Virus record (IMG/VR): IMGVR_UViG_3300010033_000001
Span: 1 to 64,000 of that record
Origin: a virus
Length of the DNA stretch: 64,000 nucleotides
Strand: one strand, 5' to 3'
Below, piece after piece: positions 3,186 through 11,176 of this stretch (within the stretch, counting starts at the first letter, position 1; every line of letters starts with the position of its first letter). The position numbers and the translations under genes are program-made. The notes under the pieces were generated by a model. That model ran no database searches and was not told the DNA's origin. It saw only the letters and a list, made by a program, of their open reading frames with translations.

Positions 3186-3494
3186 CTAATTCTTATTTTC
3201 AAGTTTCTGAAGGTTTTCCTTTAAATACTTAATCAGAATTTCACCTTGTTCAATATCGGCATCAAGTATATTAATACTGTGCTCAAGCTGCCTGCTATGC
3301 CTTTTGGCAAGGTCATTTGCCAGATGCTCACGCTGTGCCTTCATTTGATTGAGCTCAAAGGTCGCCTCACCGAGCTCGGTCTTAATTGTGTCGATTGTCA
3401 TACTTTGTTTGTCATTTATGGTTACCTTCAATACCTCATCGAATGTGGCGTTGATTTTGAATTTCTCATTGTATCGATTCTTTCTTTTAGTCAT
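3186..3494 (-). CDS. coiled-coil protein
   Basis: 102-aa ORF whose ATG overlaps the transposase stop by 8 nt. Heptad-like, Glu/Lys/Leu-rich. Confidence 0.5.
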   Translation of the reverse strand: MTKRKNRYNEKFKINATFDEVLKVTINDKQSMTIDTIKTELGEATFELNQMKAQREHLANDLAKRHSRQLEHSINILDADIEQGEILIKYLKENLQKLENKN

Positions 3495-4452
3495 ACCTCA
3501 TGTTTGTTAATTCATCATAGCTTAAAGGCGCCTCACTGCTTTCCAGGAACTTATGCATCCTTTCTGATGCACTCATAGCCCGGGCATTGAAAACGGCAGC
3601 AAACGCATTCAAATACCTGTGCAAATGCTTTTCGCTTATCTGGTGGTGAACACCGTATATGGAACGTTTAAAGAGACTCCAAAAATTTTCTATGCTATTA
3701 GTGTGTACCTGGCCATCGACATACTTCGAAAGGCGGTGCAATATGGTGGCATGGTTGTACCTCTTGTTCAGGTCCATGTATGACTTATTCTCATCGGTGT
3801 ATATGGTGGCACCTGCCGGTACTTTCTGATTAATGAATTCCAAGAGGTGCTTTTTCTTACCGCTGGGCATGTACCTTAAAACGATTTGACCGGATCGCTC
3901 CATGATACCCATGAGCATTTTTTTAGGCTTGTAGGGTGTGCCATCATTTCTAAAATTACCGTTGTTCGGGTCACGCTTGCGGCCAAAGTGTTTGTTCTTC
4001 TCCTTTCCATCAATCCAAGCTTCATCAACCTCAATGGGTCCGGAGCAATCCAAGAACTCAGGTTGTTGCTCCTTAAGCATTTCGCGGATTCGGTGCATCA
4101 TGAACCAGGCTGTTTTCTGTGTGATGCCTAGCAATTCAGCCAGGTAGGGACTAGTGACGCTTTTCTTACTTGTGGTTAGGATATAGATCGCCCCGAACCA
4201 TATTCTCAATGGCTTCTTAGTATTCTGAAAAATAGTTCCGACCAACACCGTGAATTTTTTCCTGCAGTCTTTGTTACTGCACTTATAACCACGATTCGTT
4301 TTGTAGGGCTTTTCACTTTGGCAATGCGGGCACCTGGGCTTGCCGTTCCATCTAATTTGTTCGTAGTACTCGATTGCCGTTTTTTCATCACGGAAATAAT
4401 CGAGCAAATGAGGTAGGGATTTGAAATTCATGTCGTAAATAATCGTTGTCAC
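3487..4452 (-). CDS. IS1595-family (ISXO2-like) DDE transposase
   Basis: N-terminal zinc ribbon (CPHCQS...CSNKDC), an HTH region, then an ISXO2-like core (EVDEAWIDGK...IYTDENKSY...HTNSIENFWS). Confidence 0.8.
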   Translation of the reverse strand: MTTIIYDMNFKSLPHLLDYFRDEKTAIEYYEQIRWNGKPRCPHCQSEKPYKTNRGYKCSNKDCRKKFTVLVGTIFQNTKKPLRIWFGAIYILTTSKKSVTSPYLAELLGITQKTAWFMMHRIREMLKEQQPEFLDCSGPIEVDEAWIDGKEKNKHFGRKRDPNNGNFRNDGTPYKPKKMLMGIMERSGQIVLRYMPSGKKKHLLEFINQKVPAGATIYTDENKSYMDLNKRYNHATILHRLSKYVDGQVHTNSIENFWSLFKRSIYGVHHQISEKHLHRYLNAFAAVFNARAMSASERMHKFLESSEAPLSYDELTNMRYD

Positions 4453-6278: not shown

Positions 6279-6364
6279 GGCGCAGTGGCGAAATCGGTAA
6301 ACGCATCAGATTTTGACTCTGATATCCGTCCCAGGATTTGTCGGTTCGAATCCGACCTGCGCTT
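6279..6364 (+). tRNA. class II tRNA (long variable arm, Leu-like D arm) with anticodon UUG (Gln by anticodon)
   Basis: Acceptor GGCGCAG/CTGCGCT (G1-U72 wobble), U8, D stem GCG/CGC with loop AAATCGGTAAA. Anticodon stem TCAGA/TCTGA with loop TTTTGAC (anticodon 6313-6315). 17-nt variable arm with an ATCC/GGAT stem. T arm GTCGG-TTCGAAT-CCGAC. Confidence 0.7.
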
Positions 6365-6373
6365 CTATTTATC

Positions 6374-6475: not shown

Positions 6476-6553
6476 GGGGGAGTAGCTCAACCCGGATAGA
6501 GCGTCTGACTTAAAATCAGAAAGTTGCGGGATCGTACCCCGTCTCCTCCACCA
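6476..6553 (+). tRNA. class I tRNA with anticodon UAA (Leu by anticodon), 3' CCA encoded
   Basis: Acceptor GGGGGAG/CTCCTCC (one G-U), D arm GCTC-AACCCGGATA-GAGC, anticodon arm TCTGA-CTTAAAA-TCAGA (anticodon 6511-6513). 5-nt variable loop, T arm GCGGG-ATCGTAC-CCCGT, then A-CCA. Confidence 0.8.
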
Positions 6554-9353: not shown

Positions 9354-9534
9354 AAATCAACTATATGTCGAAAAATAGTAAAAAACTTGACACATTCTTT
9401 TGTTACATGTCAAAGATCGGCTGCACCCAATTTGTAACAAGTGCGTTTATGAGGCGCAAACATCATATTTATCGAAGATTTTTCATTTTTTGCCGCGTGT
9501 CAAACTTTCGTTATCGGGTTGAGGGACCCAGGCA

Positions 9535-9744
9535 TTATTTCTCAATTGTTGGGTTCTTCAATTGATCAAGATATCGGTTCTTTTTGGCAATCTTACGGTT
9601 TAATGCTTCGATCTTGATTTGTGTTTGTACCAAATCACCTTTTAGGCTTCTTAACTGACGACCGTAATGTCCAAGATCGTTTGTGCACAGTAAGATTTTT
9701 TCGTTGATCTCCTCTTGGGTTAATTGCTTTTTATCTCTTTGCAT
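9535..9744 (-). CDS. small coiled-coil protein
   Basis: 69-aa ORF, heptad-like. Confidence 0.4.
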   Translation of the reverse strand: MQRDKKQLTQEEINEKILLCTNDLGHYGRQLRSLKGDLVQTQIKIEALNRKIAKKNRYLDQLKNPTIEK

Positions 9745-9996
9745 AACGGTTTTTTTTAAGCCCGTCTTTCCAGGCTGTCAGTCTTTGAACACCTTAAGCC
9801 ATACAATGGGCAGACTCTAAGTCTGCGAGAGGAAGCCATAATCAGATGTCCCAATGCCTAAGATGAACCCGACAAGGTTCGCCTCATTTTATCCTCTCAA
9901 ATAGTTCTTTTCAACCAATGCTTTAGGCTACTCGCTCACGGTCGTATCTGTGAAATCCGAATAGTTCAGGTGTGGGCTTTCACCTAAAGCTGATTG

Positions 9997-10078
9997 TGGC
10001 GATGGCAGGAATCGAACCTACAACCTTACGGACTCCGCAAGTGCATGAGCGGGGCTAACCAATATCCCCATCATCGCT
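9997..10078 (-). ncRNA. tRNA-like element with canonical acceptor, D and T arms but no anticodon loop
   Basis: The minus strand reads AGCGATG-AT-GGGG-ATATTGGTTAG-CCCC ... GTAGG-TTCGATT-CCTGC-CATCGCC-A. The anticodon position is a closed hairpin CTC(A)TGC-ACTT-GCGGAG followed by CC-GTAA-GG. Confidence 0.45.
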
Positions 10079-10092
10079 TCTTTAAATAAGTT

Positions 10093-10322
10093 AGGAAATA
10101 AACAGGATTCGATACCTGTAACCGTTCATGACCGGATATTTCGTCTTCTACTAGAATTACCTATCCGTTACATGGCGCTCTGTACAAAGCACCAATGTTC
10201 ACTATAGACCCTCCTGCCCTCGCAGGTGTGCAGTATTACACCAAATCACCAACTAATATGCGTTACTTATCACAAGCTGCATGGGTTAGTCCCCACCGCT
10301 ACGCGCTTCCGCCACTATTCCC
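10093..10322 (-). ncRNA. candidate ~230-nt structured RNA closed by a tRNA-type acceptor stem with G3-U70
   Basis: 5' GGGAATA pairs 7/7 with 3' TATTTCC (G3-U70 wobble). Leu-like D-arm string GTGGCGGAA at the 5' end and a T-arm-like ACAGG-TATCGAAT-CCTGT at the 3' end. Internal hairpins GGTGT/ACACC, CCTGC-GAGG-GCAGG and GGTGCT-(T)TGTACA(G)-AGCGCC (6 bp; 7 bp if the adjacent T-G wobble is counted). Confidence 0.3.
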
Positions 10323-10381
10323 TATTGATTAAGTCAATTTTCCAGGTCACGTCTTGATCCTGGTCAGTAGCCAAAGACAGG

Positions 10382-11176
10382 TTACCCTAATCCTTGGCTA
10401 TTTTCGGTTTTTAATTCTCGCATGCTTAACTGTTTAGGTTCCTGTTTCTTTACCTGTGCAGGGTTGAATAACTGACCCTGTTTGATATGGTTCTTTAACC
10501 TTTCGACCCCTGCTTTATAGTAGTCTTCATCAATCTCCCATAGGTCCAGATCAAAGCCTAAATCATAACATGCTATTGCTATGCTCATAGAGCCTCCATG
10601 AGTGTCTAGAATCCTATCCCCAGGTTTGGCATAGTTCTGTAATAGCCACTTGTAAAGGGCTACAGGTTTTTGTGTGGGATGAATGCGCTTATCAATACCA
10701 GTGTTATCCCAATTAATTTTTCCCCCTTGCTTGTTACCGCTCCATTTATATCTAAAAACTGTGATTCTTTTTTGAAGTGAGCAGCTCGCTAAGTCACCAT
10801 GAGAGAAGTTAATTTTGGTTCCTTAAAAATCAGTTTCCTTGTCATGAAATATTCTACCTTTGGATGTGATATAACTCGCATAGTAATTACAACCCCAGAT
10901 GATTTGGTTTTCAGTCACTAAATGAAGTGATTTAAAATAGTTCTCTTTAGGAATAGAGTCATTCCAATCCTTGTTTTTATGTATTGATGGGTACTTTTTA
11001 CCGTTAGCTTGAGGAAAGTTTTTACCCGCGGCACCACTTCCATTAATCATATCAAGACCAATTCCATACGGAGGATCCACAATGGCCAAATGGTAGGACT
11101 TCTCTTTCATGGATTTCATAGCTTTCATACAATCCCCATGATACAGGTTAATATTTGGTGTCTTGCTTACGTTCAT
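10382..11176 (-). pseudogene. DNA methyltransferase (N6_N4 type, DPPY...HPTQKP...GGS) interrupted by an in-frame TAA at 10823-10825
   Basis: ORFs 10823..11176 and 10382..10588 share one frame. Hand translation across the gap is continuous: ...HDKETDF*GTKINFSHGDLASCSLQKRITVFRYKWSGNKQGGKINWDNTGIDKRIHPTQKPVALYKWLLQNYAKPGDRILDTHGGSMS... Confidence 0.75.

What the first reader, a model, noticed from the sequence alone, without database searches (positions are those of the whole stretch)
10093..10322. ~230-nt RNA whose ends form a perfect acceptor stem with a G3-U70 pair
On the minus strand, 5' GGGAATA (10322-10316) pairs 7/7 with 3' TATTTCC (10100-10094). The third pair is a G-U wobble, the alanine-identity position used by tRNA-Ala and tmRNA. 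The 5' end continues with GTGGCGGAA, which resembles the start of a bacterial tRNA-Leu D arm. The 3' end carries a T-arm-like ACAGG-TATCGAAT-CCTGT. About 150 nt of hairpin-rich sequence lie in between (GGTGT/ACACC, CCTGC-GAGG-GCAGG, and GGTGCT/AGCGCC with a TGTACA loop). Possible explanations are a tRNA gene carrying a large insertion or intron, or a miniature tmRNA-like molecule. Against a standard tmRNA: the T loop has 8 nt, one unpaired T separates the T stem from the acceptor, the discriminator is T, no CCA is encoded, and I found no tag-like reading frame.
Basis: seen in the sequence. Interest (0 to 1): 0.7.

Follow-up and report, generated by a model that had tools for sequence, protein, structure and literature searches.

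The report
Anticodon-less tRNA-shaped RNA in a phage
The 230-base element is built on the frame of a leucine-type transfer RNA whose decoding arm is replaced by about 180 bases of hairpins. It is neither a working tRNA nor a tmRNA, but similar unexplained tRNA-framed RNAs turn out to be common in phages.

Summary
The 7/7 end pairing plus a T-arm-like hairpin is not rare on its own: about one such frame occurs per random 64-kb window. It becomes non-random because a class-II (Leu-type) D-arm start, GTGGCGGAA, follows the 5' strand in exact tRNA register (0 of 200 random windows).

So E1 (10093-10322, minus strand) is tRNA-derived. It is not a decoding tRNA, an intron-bearing tRNA, a tmRNA or a group I intron:
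- ARAGORN at default settings finds nothing, and Rfam finds nothing even at E<=10.
- No single deletion restores a tRNA, and there is no anticodon hairpin.
- By homology the "G3-U70" pair sits at 2:71, with a His-like -1:73 G-C pair on top.

A second anticodon-less tRNA-like module (E2, 9997-10078) follows 15 nt downstream. E1 has no detectable homologue anywhere I could search.

The architecture is not unique. Pattern scans of IMG/VR recovered at least 14 unrelated families of 156-219-nt Leu-type tRNA frames whose anticodon arm is replaced by a structured insert, some with compensatory changes. One lies in the prevalent gut LoVEphage, another in a relative of this phage. T4 species 1 RNA is the classical precedent.

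Best reading: a natural "tRNA scaffold" RNA, or a decaying one. The function of its payload is unknown.

The parts
10093..10322 (-). E1: the whole tRNA-framed element (230 nt)
   Evidence: Sequence. MFE fold -71.9 kcal/mol with 71 pairs, 10 of them G-U. No Rfam hit at E<=10.
10315..10322 (-). Acceptor 5' strand GGGAAUAG. It pairs with 10094-10101 (UUAUUUCC): 8 bp, with G-U at the 3rd and 8th pairs.
   Evidence: Register by homology with GTGGCGRAA in the tRNA at 6285 and in the IMG/VR frames.
10303..10314 (-). UG connector plus a miniature D arm (GCG-GAAG-CGC). The D loop is cut down to 4 nt and has no G18G19.
   Evidence: Comparison with the Leu-type D arm GCGAAAUUGGUAGACGC in the IMG/VR frames.
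10276..10302 (-). Hairpin H1 at the anticodon-arm position: 9 bp with two irregularities and a 6-nt loop GACUAA. It is not a canonical anticodon loop.
10259..10274 (-). Hairpin H2 (UGUG-AUAAGUAA-CGCA).
10124..10253 (-). Multi-branched domain M. It is closed by GUUGGUGAU/GUCAUGAAC and holds hairpins at 10228-10241, 10213-10226, 10170-10198 and 10133-10167.
   Evidence: (z = -2.16 for this domain alone).
10102..10119 (-). T-arm-like hairpin ACAGG-UAUCGAAU-CCUGU. The loop has 8 nt: canonical UUCGAAU with one extra A.
   Evidence: It is also flagged as a weak terminator-like hairpin followed by a U-rich tract.
9997..10078 (-). E2: a second anticodon-less tRNA-like module. Acceptor AGCGAUG/CAUCGCC pairs 6/7; D arm GGGG-AUAUUGGUUAG-CCCC; a 7-bp hairpin with a 3-nt loop replaces the anticodon arm; canonical T arm GUAGG-UUCGAUU-CCUGC; A73.
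   Evidence: Only a 10.9-bit partial tmRNA/tRNA-clan hit on its 3' end. Its 3' 22-mer is identical to the 3' ends of bacterial tRNA-Met/Val genes.

Best explanation
E1 is a non-decoding, tRNA-framed RNA. It keeps the frame of a class-II (leucine-type) tRNA: an acceptor helix stacked on the T stem, a two-base connector and a remnant D arm. Everything between the D arm and the T arm has been replaced by about 180 nt of hairpin-rich RNA closed by its own helix. It sits with a second anticodon-less tRNA-like module (E2) at the 3' end of the ParB/DNA-methyltransferase transcription unit, just upstream of the promoter-like site for the terminase operon.

Inferred mechanism: it is co-transcribed with the upstream genes. 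The acceptor/T-arm minihelix is then recognised by host RNase P at the 5' side and by 3'-end trimming enzymes. This releases and stabilises a discrete RNA of about 230 nt, in the same way that engineered 'tRNA scaffolds' and phage T4 species 1 RNA are made. The frame serves as a processing and stability handle, and the inserted domain is the payload. The payload's target is unknown.

Shown: the tRNA derivation, the absence of decoding and tmRNA features, and the recurrence of the architecture in other phages. Inferred: transcription, processing, stability, and any function of the payload.
For: - Three tRNA features lie in correct register: 0 of 200 random windows show this, and GTGGCGRAA occurs only here and in a real class-II tRNA.
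- All helices of the frame and of the insert are intact: 8/8, 5/5, 3/3, and four insert hairpins without mismatches.
- The minus-strand fold is 23.6 kcal/mol more stable than the plus-strand fold, with 10 G-U pairs. The whole 640-nt non-coding gap folds with z = -3.15.
- An adjacent second anticodon-less tRNA frame is present.
- In the closest relative (L003) the same position holds an ordinary intrinsic terminator, so this is an accessory insertion.
- The architecture recurs. In one IMG/VR scan 35 of 120 pattern hits have a perfect 7/7 acceptor pairing across 156-182 nt with no tRNA inside, in 10 families. Four more frames measure 204-219 nt. One further frame (X21) lies 1 nt after tRNA-Gln in a related phage.
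- Rfam's tRNA model matches two of the frames end to end, with the anticodon arm replaced by 98-106 nt.
- Compensatory changes between family members support the insert helices (L104/L109 and L103/L160).
- One family is in Bacteroides LoVEphage, where it is annotated only as 'tRNA-His / tRNA-Undet' in two joined pieces.
- T4 rnaC (species 1 RNA) has the same plan: a canonical T arm, a terminal helix and an expanded middle.
Against: - E1 is a singleton. No homologue was found by nhmmer/blastn or by a covariance model in about 0.9 Mb from some 60 related phages, in 2.1 Mb of IMG/VR loci carrying other frames, in IMG/VR or GTDB pattern scans, or in GenBank phages. There is therefore no covariation evidence for E1 itself.
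- The only other copy is 100% identical.
- Its frame is degraded exactly where the tRNA elbow forms: a 4-nt D loop without GG and an 8-nt T loop. Its discriminator is not A. This fits decay as well as it fits divergence.
- The single-sequence z-score of -1.9 is weak.
- No promoter, expression data or processing data exist.
- In the full transcript the E1 5' region can instead pair with E2: global MFE -108.4 against -103.1 kcal/mol for the two local folds.
Confidence: 0.5

Rival explanations
1. Decaying relic. E1 and E2 are pseudogenes of tRNA or tRNA-framed genes, possibly scrambled by duplication or recombination between tRNA-like modules. They are no longer under selection. Any processing is incidental and the RNA does nothing.
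For: - The D loop is truncated, the T loop has an inserted base, there is no anticodon arm, and the discriminator is non-A.
- Rfam and ARAGORN do not recognise the element.
- No homologue is present even in phages whose terminase is 50-59% identical.
- The neighbouring methyltransferase gene carries an in-frame TAA, so the region may be decaying in general.
Against: - Every helix of the frame and of the four insert hairpins is still perfectly paired, with G-U pairs only on the transcribed strand. Random decay would break stems as readily as loops.
- Degenerate frames can still be real stable RNAs: T4 rnaC has a 5/7 terminal helix and no D arm.
Confidence: 0.3
2. Intron-containing tRNA. E1 alone, or the E1 5' part joined to the E2 3' part (ARAGORN's tRNA-Leu(UAG) with a 236-nt intron), is spliced to give a functional tRNA.
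For: - ARAGORN -i reports the chimera at default threshold, with a perfect 5-bp anticodon stem AGCGG/CCGCU.
- The E1 5' 50 nt and E2 are more complementary than shuffled controls: -42.7 against -34.2 +/- 4.2 kcal/mol, 17 of 500 shuffles as good.
- A few IMG/VR frames (L120 and the second unit of L283) keep a Leu(UAA)-type anticodon loop next to an insertion.
Against: - The chimera's acceptor stem pairs only 4/7, whereas each element pairs with its own partner strand (8/8 and 6/7).
- Position 37 would be C.
- There is no group I or group II signal at E<=10.
- ARAGORN -i makes about 6 intron-containing calls, likely spurious, in 900 kb of control DNA.
- No deletion of E1 restores a tRNA.
- No bacterial mechanism is known for removing a ~150-240-nt non-group-I intron from a tRNA (established knowledge).
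Confidence: 0.06
3. Miniature tmRNA-like molecule that is charged (with Ala) and rescues or tags stalled ribosomes.
For: The termini form an acceptor/T minihelix with a G-U at the third pair from the end. The middle is large and hairpin-rich, with no anticodon. ARAGORN reports a tmRNA at -ps70.
Against: - No hit to RF00023 or to the alpha, beta, cyano, mitochondrial or permuted tmRNA models at E<=10.
- The low-threshold ARAGORN calls include equally good ones on the other strand, and the tag is 'not identified'.
- The proposed tag ARAGGSIVNIGALYRAPCNG lacks a hydrophobic degron end.
- The T loop has 8 nt, there is no A73, and no CCA is encoded.
- By homology the G-U lies at 2:71.
- The helix that closes the insert starts 49 nt after the D arm rather than directly, as P2 does in tmRNA.
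- No SmpB is seen in the phage.
Confidence: 0.02
4. Part of a larger cis-acting structure. The 640-nt gap (9745-10381) acts as a whole. It could be a processing, termination or stability region between the early/accessory unit and the terminase unit, or the packaging-site region at the DNA level. The tRNA-like pieces would then be only raw material.
For: - The whole gap folds with z = -3.15.
- A very stable hairpin overlaps the methyltransferase stop codon (z = -4.9).
- The E1 T arm plus its U-rich tail scores as a terminator-like site.
- The relative L003 has a plain terminator at this position.
- The location is directly upstream of the terminase genes.
Against: This does not explain why two modules keep precise tRNA registers, with the acceptor strands abutting the T stems. 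No repeats or long inverted repeats typical of cos/pac or origin regions were found.
Confidence: 0.1

Closest known systems
Phage T4 species 1 RNA (rnaC, 139 nt; NC_000866 70908-71046), a small stable RNA of unknown function in the T4 tRNA cluster
   Same: It is phage-encoded and lies in line with tRNA genes on the same strand. Its termini form an acceptor-like helix that abuts a T arm (CCGGG-UUCGAAU-CCCGG). The middle is expanded into long hairpins, there is no anticodon arm, and no function is known.
   Different: There is no sequence similarity. rnaC has a canonical 7-nt T loop, no D-arm remnant and a 5/7 terminal helix. E1 is 90 nt longer and has a Leu-type D-arm start. rnaC is experimentally known as a stable RNA (annotation); E1 is not.
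Unnamed Leu-type tRNA frames with a 75-150-nt insert in uncultivated phages (IMG/VR families L101-L198, L240, L248, L272, L290). This includes the Bacteroides LoVEphage element annotated 'tRNA-His / tRNA-Undet' (MW660583.1 29237-29439) and X21 in the related contig L021.
   Same: They share the 7-bp acceptor ending in the G of GUGGCG, the UG connector, a Leu-type D-arm start and a T arm directly followed by the acceptor 3' strand. The anticodon arm is replaced by a structured insert closed by a 7-9-bp helix. Most have no anticodon hairpin, and they often lie beside tRNA genes.
   Different: Those frames were selected for a canonical D-arm start and T loop, and they mostly have A73. E1 has a 4-nt D loop, an 8-nt T loop, an extra terminal base pair and two extra hairpins before the closing helix. 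E1 shares no detectable sequence with any of them and fails the Rfam tRNA model that two of them pass.
Engineered tRNA scaffolds (recombinant RNA inserted in place of the anticodon arm so that the cell processes and stabilises it; mentioned in PMC3753655 as listed; the details are from my own knowledge)
   Same: The design principle is the same: the acceptor, T and D frame is retained, and the payload replaces the anticodon stem-loop.
   Different: The scaffolds are artificial and use an intact tRNA elbow. E1's elbow-forming loops are altered.
tmRNA (Rfam RF00023 and variants)
   Same: A tRNA-like domain made by the two ends, a large structured middle and no anticodon.
   Different: E1 has no CM match, no tag reading frame, no A73/CCA and no P2-type direct connection. 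Its G-U is not at 3:70 in the homologous register.
Bacterial tRNA-Leu(UAA) genes interrupted by a group I intron
   Same: A Leu-type tRNA body with a large intervening sequence.
   Different: E1 has no group I core, its insert is too short, and it has no split anticodon loop and no restorable tRNA.

Membership tests
Canonical decoding tRNA | Acceptor helix (7 bp) stacked on a 5-bp T stem, with the 3' strand abutting the T stem | tested here: met
   8 bp + 5 bp with no gap, or 7 bp with one bulged U.
Canonical decoding tRNA | 7-nt T loop (UUCRANY) and a D loop with G18G19 that form the elbow | tested here: not met
   The T loop is UAUCGAAU (8 nt). The D loop is GAAG (4 nt, no GG).
Canonical decoding tRNA | 5-bp anticodon stem with a 7-nt loop (U33, purine 37) | tested here: not met
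   No such hairpin lies at a plausible position. The H1 loop has 6 nt, GACUAA.
Canonical decoding tRNA | Recognised by ARAGORN or the Rfam RF00005 model | tested here: not met
   (nothing at E<=10).
Intron-containing tRNA (group I or other) | Removal of one contiguous segment restores a canonical tRNA | tested here: not met
   About 7,700 deletion variants gave 0 ARAGORN calls at default threshold. The -i call is a chimera with a 4/7 acceptor stem.
Intron-containing tRNA (group I or other) | Group I catalytic core (P3-P9, G-binding site) | tested here: not met
   No RF00028 hit at E<=10. The order of helices in the MFE fold does not fit P3-P8 (by inspection).
tmRNA | tRNA-Ala-like domain: G3-U70, A73, CCA end | tested here: not met
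   A G-U is the third pair from the end, but it lies at 2:71 in the homologous register. Position 73 is U or a paired C. No CCA is encoded.
tmRNA | Resume codon and tag reading frame, with pseudoknots | tested here: not met
   ARAGORN calls a tmRNA only at <=70% threshold, with 'Tag not identified' and comparable calls on the opposite strand. No convincing pseudoknot was found (that scan is noisy).
tmRNA | Match to the tmRNA covariance models | tested here: not met
   One search gives none on E1. One search gives only a 10.9-bit hit on the T arm and acceptor of E2.
tmRNA | Charging by AlaRS and binding to SmpB | not testable with these tools
   This needs biochemistry. No SmpB family is among the phage proteins.
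tRNA-framed stable phage RNAs (T4 species 1 type; IMG/VR and LoVEphage frames) | The ends form an acceptor-like helix abutting a T arm, and the anticodon arm is replaced by a large structured insert closed by a helix | tested here: met
   for E1. for the comparison set.
tRNA-framed stable phage RNAs (T4 species 1 type; IMG/VR and LoVEphage frames) | Leu-type 5' part (acceptor position 7 = G of GUGGCGRAA, UG connector, GCG D stem) | tested here: met
   The D loop itself is truncated in E1.
tRNA-framed stable phage RNAs (T4 species 1 type; IMG/VR and LoVEphage frames) | Phage genome, same strand as its neighbours, next to tRNA or tRNA-like genes | tested here: met
   E2 lies 15 nt downstream. 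The genes on both sides are on the minus strand.
tRNA-framed stable phage RNAs (T4 species 1 type; IMG/VR and LoVEphage frames) | Sequence or covariance-model homology to another member | tested here: not met
   This grouping is architectural, not a homology family.
tRNA-framed stable phage RNAs (T4 species 1 type; IMG/VR and LoVEphage frames) | Accumulates as a discrete processed RNA | not testable with these tools
   No expression data are available.
Bacterial/phage Y RNA (YrlA) | Ro-binding terminal stem with an internal tRNA-like module, and a linked rsr (TROVE) gene | tested here: not met
   No Rfam hit. No TROVE domain is among the phage proteins. In E1 the tRNA-like module is formed by the termini themselves.
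tRNA-Sec / allo-tRNA (8/5, 8/4, 9/3 types; PMC5389517) | 13- or 12-bp acceptor/T branch, long D stem with a 4-nt loop, UCA or other anticodon, long variable arm | tested here: inconclusive
   The 8/5 branch and a 4-nt D loop are present. The D stem has only 3 bp and there is no anticodon arm.

The most novel reading that the evidence does not exclude
E1 is a functional member of a widespread and so far undescribed kind of phage RNA. In this kind, a leucine-type tRNA frame is used as a natural scaffold, and in canonical members perhaps as a LeuRS, RNase P or CCA-enzyme handle. The scaffold carries lineage-specific structured payloads of 75-180 nt in place of the anticodon arm. The payloads would act on host or phage factors, for example as decoys or sponges for tRNA-directed defence or processing enzymes. 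T4 species 1 RNA and the LoVEphage 'tRNA-Undet' would be other members.
Probability: 0.3. Interest if true: 0.8.

Novelty: new variant of a known kind. Interest (0 to 1): 0.5.

Why it matters
If E1 is expressed, it adds to evidence that phages repeatedly build non-decoding RNAs on a tRNA frame. That plan has been known since the 1970s from T4 species 1 RNA, whose function was never explained.

Following this finding turned up many independent examples, including one in one of the most prevalent human-gut phages. In databases these are either missed or mislabelled as intron-containing or 'undetermined' tRNAs. This gives a concrete, testable set:
- Are they cut by RNase P?
- Are they charged by LeuRS?
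- Do they affect tRNA-targeting defence systems?

For annotation, it shows that tRNA finders run in intron mode produce misleading calls on such elements.

Tried and rejected
- Default ARAGORN and the Rfam gathering scan of the window found nothing at E1 or E2. Rfam at E<=10 on 9500-10900 and on E1 alone gave no relevant family.
- ARAGORN intron and low-threshold modes gave only a chimeric tRNA-Leu(UAG) and non-specific tmRNA calls on both strands.
- A deletion scan to restore a tRNA gave none.
- Homologue searches all gave no match to E1:
  - megablast and blastn against 50,697 GenBank phages;
  - six IMG/VR pattern or protein scans aimed at E1, E2 or X21;
  - a GTDB pattern scan;
  - nhmmer/blastn and a single-sequence covariance model against about 0.9 Mb around the terminase gene of some 60 related phages;
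  - nhmmer/blastn against 2.1 Mb of IMG/VR loci.
- Exact-protein look-ups found only the source contig and one 100%-identical Logan contig.
- E1-E2 paralogy: a local alignment is significant only for the T arm.
- Direct or inverted repeats, MITE-like ends: nothing beyond chance.
- phi29-type pRNA, RNase P RNA, 6S, SRP, Y RNA, GOLLD/ROOL and self-cleaving ribozymes: no Rfam signal.
- E3 (9923-9993) as a third tRNA-like unit: rejected. Its MFE fold is two simple hairpins.
- E2's 3' end as an attP-like copy of a host tRNA: the 22-mer matches tRNA-Met/Val genes in five unrelated phyla, so it says nothing about the host.
- Genome-wide stop-codon recoding, with E1 or E2 as a suppressor tRNA: only one gene has an in-frame stop, and neither element has a suppressor anticodon loop.
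- Literature searches found no description of such elements in phages.
Full report
**Context**

The window is most of a 66-kb contig of an uncultivated contractile-tailed phage (ENA ERZ27245420 k141_180476). Nearly all of its genes are on the minus strand.

The finding lies in a 640-nt stretch with no credible ORF (9745-10381). Upstream is a ParB-like gene plus an N6/N4 DNA methyltransferase (11857-10382). Downstream are a 69-aa ORF, a 276-aa ORF and the large terminase gene (9744-6847).

The closest relatives have terminases only 50-59% identical. In the closest one (L003) the ParB gene is followed by a plain intrinsic terminator and a 170-nt spacer, not by this region.

**Checking the observation**

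Three points need refinement.

First, the "unpaired T" at 10101 can wobble-pair with G10315. The acceptor helix then has 8 bp and is continuous with the 5-bp T stem.

Second, the terminal pairing is not significant on its own. In 200 second-order Markov randomisations, a T-arm-like hairpin with a 7/7 partner within 450 nt turns up about once per window (0.98). None of those also has GTGGCGRAA in register. That nonamer occurs only twice in the real window: at positions 8-16 of this element, and at positions 7-15 of the class-II tRNA at 6279-6365. The element is therefore genuinely tRNA-derived, and specifically Leu-type in its 5' part.

Third, that homology fixes the register. The G of GUGGCG is acceptor position 7 in the phage's own tRNA and in all the frames found later. 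E1's wobble pairs therefore lie at 2:71 and 7:66, and its first G-C pair is an extra -1:73 pair. This is the tRNA-His arrangement, not G3-U70 under a free A73. The alanine-identity argument does not hold in this register.

**What it is not**

ARAGORN at default settings and Rfam at gathering thresholds find nothing here. Rfam at E<=10 with lax filters on the element alone returns no family at all: no tRNA, tmRNA of any type, group I or II intron, RNase P RNA, Y RNA or ribozyme.

There is no 5-bp/7-nt anticodon hairpin. The hairpin at the anticodon-arm position has 9 interrupted pairs and a 6-nt loop, GACUAA. Deleting any single internal segment (about 7,700 variants) never gives a tRNA at ARAGORN's default threshold.

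ARAGORN's intron mode reports a tRNA-Leu(UAG) with a 236-nt intron. That call joins the 5' end of this element to the 3' end of the next one, and its acceptor stem pairs only 4/7. The same mode makes about six intron-containing calls, likely spurious, in 900 kb of related phage DNA.

tmRNA calls appear only at a 70% threshold or lower. They come with equally good calls on the opposite strand and an unidentified tag. No SmpB, Ro/TROVE, RNA ligase or CCA-adding enzyme is among the phage's recognisable proteins.

**Anatomy**

On the minus strand, E1 consists of the following parts.
- An 8-bp acceptor helix (10322-10315 with 10101-10094).
- A UG connector.
- A 3-bp D stem with a 4-nt loop GAAG (10312-10303).
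- Hairpin H1 (10302-10276) and hairpin H2 (10274-10259).
- A multi-branched domain of about 130 nt (10253-10124), closed by GUUGGUGAU/GUCAUGAAC, which holds four clean hairpins.
- A GGUU linker.
- The T arm ACAGG-UAUCGAAU-CCUGU (10119-10102).

The fold has 71 pairs, 10 of them G-U. The minus strand folds at -71.9 kcal/mol (z = -1.94) and the plus strand at -48.3 kcal/mol (z = -1.03).

Fifteen bases downstream lies a second module, E2 (10078-9997). It has a 6/7 acceptor stem, a normal D arm, a canonical T arm and A73. Its anticodon arm is replaced by an 8-nt linker and a 7-bp hairpin with a 3-nt loop. So there are two adjacent anticodon-less tRNA frames.

The whole gap is unusually structured (z = -3.15). 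A sigma-70-like promoter (TTGAAA-17-TAAAAT, 9914-9886) lies downstream of both modules. They therefore most likely belong to the 3' end of the upstream transcription unit.

**Homologues**

None was found for E1.
- GenBank phages, near and distant modes.
- IMG/VR and GTDB pattern scans.
- nhmmer, blastn and a calibrated single-sequence covariance model over 0.89 Mb around the terminase genes of about 60 related phages.
- An independent Logan assembly is 100% identical over 4.8 kb. This confirms the sequence but offers no variation.

There is therefore no covariation evidence for or against E1 itself.

**The architecture recurs**

A crude scan for "T arm + 7/7 acceptor" in the related loci found X21 (L021 15366-15540). 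X21 is a 174-nt element that starts 1 nt after a normal tRNA-Gln. It has a perfect acceptor stem, a canonical T arm, GUGGCGAAA in register and a ~100-nt insert closed by an 8-bp helix.

I then scanned IMG/VR for GTGGCGAAA-N(120-150)-GGTTCGAGTCC. The chance expectation is about 3e-4 per stretch. The rest score 1-5 of 7, as expected for neighbouring unrelated tRNAs. These 35 fall into 10 unrelated sequence families of 156-182 nt. ARAGORN finds no standard tRNA inside any of them.

Rfam's tRNA model matches two of them end to end, just above threshold. In both, the entire anticodon arm is replaced by 98-106 nt. Only one family keeps a Leu(UAA)-type anticodon hairpin.

Family members differ by compensatory changes.
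- GTTTCTG/CAGAAAC becomes GTTTCAG/CTGAAAC (L104 to L109).
- GTCAGGT/ACTTGAC becomes GTTGGGT/GCCCGAC (L104 to L109). This helix interleaves with AATAGCAT/ATGCTATT as a pseudoknot.
- GGGT..ACCC becomes AGGT..ACCT (L103 to L160).

The inserts are therefore selected structures, not junk.

A second scan with a longer gap gave four more convincing frames of 204-219 nt, the size of E1. One of them has E1's T stem ACAGG/CCTGT.

The commonest family belongs to Bacteroides LoVEphage and its cultured relatives. The one annotated record calls it "tRNA-His; tRNA-Undet" in two joined pieces, and the other five records leave it unannotated. The LoVEphage paper mentions only "nine tRNA genes" (PMC8525569).

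The classical precedent is T4 species 1 RNA (rnaC). It has a canonical T arm, a terminal helix abutting that arm, an expanded middle and no known function.

**Interpretation**

The best-supported reading is that E1 is a non-decoding RNA built on a Leu-type tRNA frame: a natural counterpart of the engineered "tRNA scaffold". The acceptor/T minihelix would direct RNase P and 3'-end trimming and stabilise the excised RNA. The inserted domain would be the payload.

What is shown: the tRNA derivation, the loss of decoding features, the exclusion of tmRNA and group I intron readings, and the recurrence of the plan in many phages. What is inferred: transcription, processing, stability, and that the payload does anything.

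The main rival is that E1 and E2 are decaying relics. The following points favour decay:
- E1's D loop and T loop, the two partners of the tRNA elbow, are both altered.
- The discriminator is not A.
- E1 is a singleton.
- The adjacent methyltransferase gene carries an in-frame TAA.

Two points argue against decay. All stems of the frame and of the insert remain perfectly paired. T4 rnaC shows that a degraded frame can still give a real stable RNA.

I put the scaffold reading at about 0.5 and the relic reading at about 0.3. The remainder is shared between a larger cis-acting structure, an intron-containing tRNA and a tmRNA-like RNA.

**Novelty**

tRNA-framed phage RNAs are a known but unexplained kind (T4 species 1). 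E1 is a new and unusually large, degenerate variant. The set of Leu-type frames found on the way appears to be undescribed: it is absent from Rfam, and I found nothing on it in the searchable literature. That set, rather than E1 alone, is the more interesting result.

Noticed in passing
window 10823-10825 (minus strand), within 10382-11176: The N6/N4 DNA methyltransferase gene is interrupted by a single in-frame TAA (..DKETDF*GTKINF..). The stop falls between the DPPY motif and the HPTQKP / GGS motifs, so both halves are needed for activity. The stop is also present in an independent Logan assembly (L091, 100% identical). It could be a pseudogene, programmed read-through or a strain-specific nonsense mutation. 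No other gene shows this.
   Followed up: partly
window 9997-10078 (minus strand): E2 is an 82-nt tRNA-like module with a normal D arm, a canonical T arm and A73. It has an A1-C72 mismatch and a 7-bp/3-nt hairpin instead of an anticodon arm. ARAGORN does not call it and Rfam does not call it at gathering threshold.
   Followed up: partly
window 6279-6365 and 6476-6553 (plus strand); also L120 5226-5308: The body types and anticodons of the phage's tRNAs look swapped. The 87-nt class-II, Leu-type body carries anticodon UUG (Gln). The 75-nt class-I body carries UAA (Leu). An 83-nt tRNA with anticodon UUG also occurs in an unrelated IMG/VR phage. This could mean missense or recoding tRNAs, or non-standard identity rules.
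   Followed up: no
window 10273-10315 with 9997-10077 (minus strand): The 5' 50 nt of E1 are extensively complementary to E2: duplex -42.7 kcal/mol against -34.2 +/- 4.2 for shuffles, 17 of 500 as good. In the full transcript the global MFE uses this pairing instead of the E1 acceptor helix. It may be an alternative conformation or a trace of common origin.
   Followed up: partly
window 10368-10400 (minus strand): A very stable hairpin (UAGCCAAGGAUUAGGGUAACCUGUCUUUGGCUA) has the methyltransferase stop codon in its loop. The 81-nt stretch that contains it folds with z = -4.9, and no U-tract follows.
   Followed up: no
window 9886-9914 (minus strand) and 9745-9885: This is the best sigma-70-like promoter of the region (TTGAAA-17-TAAAAT, 10 of 12 matches). 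It is followed by a structured leader of about 130 nt ahead of the 69-aa ORF and the terminase genes. The leader includes GAGAGGA..UCCUCUC and GCAGACU-UAG-AGUCUGC.
   Followed up: no
window 3487-4452 (minus strand): An IS1595-family (ISXO2-like) transposase gene lies inside the phage contig. It is in an accessory island that also holds the three tRNA genes and an HTH regulator on the opposite strand.
   Followed up: no
L021 15366-15540 (plus strand): X21 is a 174-nt tRNA frame with a perfect acceptor stem, a canonical T arm, GUGGCGAAA in register and a ~100-nt insert. It starts 1 nt after tRNA-Gln in a phage whose terminase is 41% identical to this one. The 260 nt between the two flanking tRNAs are also non-coding.
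   Followed up: partly
IMG/VR loci L101-L198, L240, L248, L272, L290; MW660583.1 29237-29439 (L338 4001-4203): At least 14 unrelated families of 156-219-nt Leu-type tRNA frames have the anticodon arm, or in L272 the D loop, replaced or expanded by structured inserts. Some show compensatory changes and a pseudoknot. The LoVEphage copy is annotated 'tRNA-His / tRNA-Undet'.
   Followed up: partly
L093 1684-1757 (Candidatus Saccharibacteria MAG contig): A 74-nt tRNA-like sequence has a GGCGATG/CATCGCC acceptor stem and a canonical T arm, yet ARAGORN does not call it.
   Followed up: no
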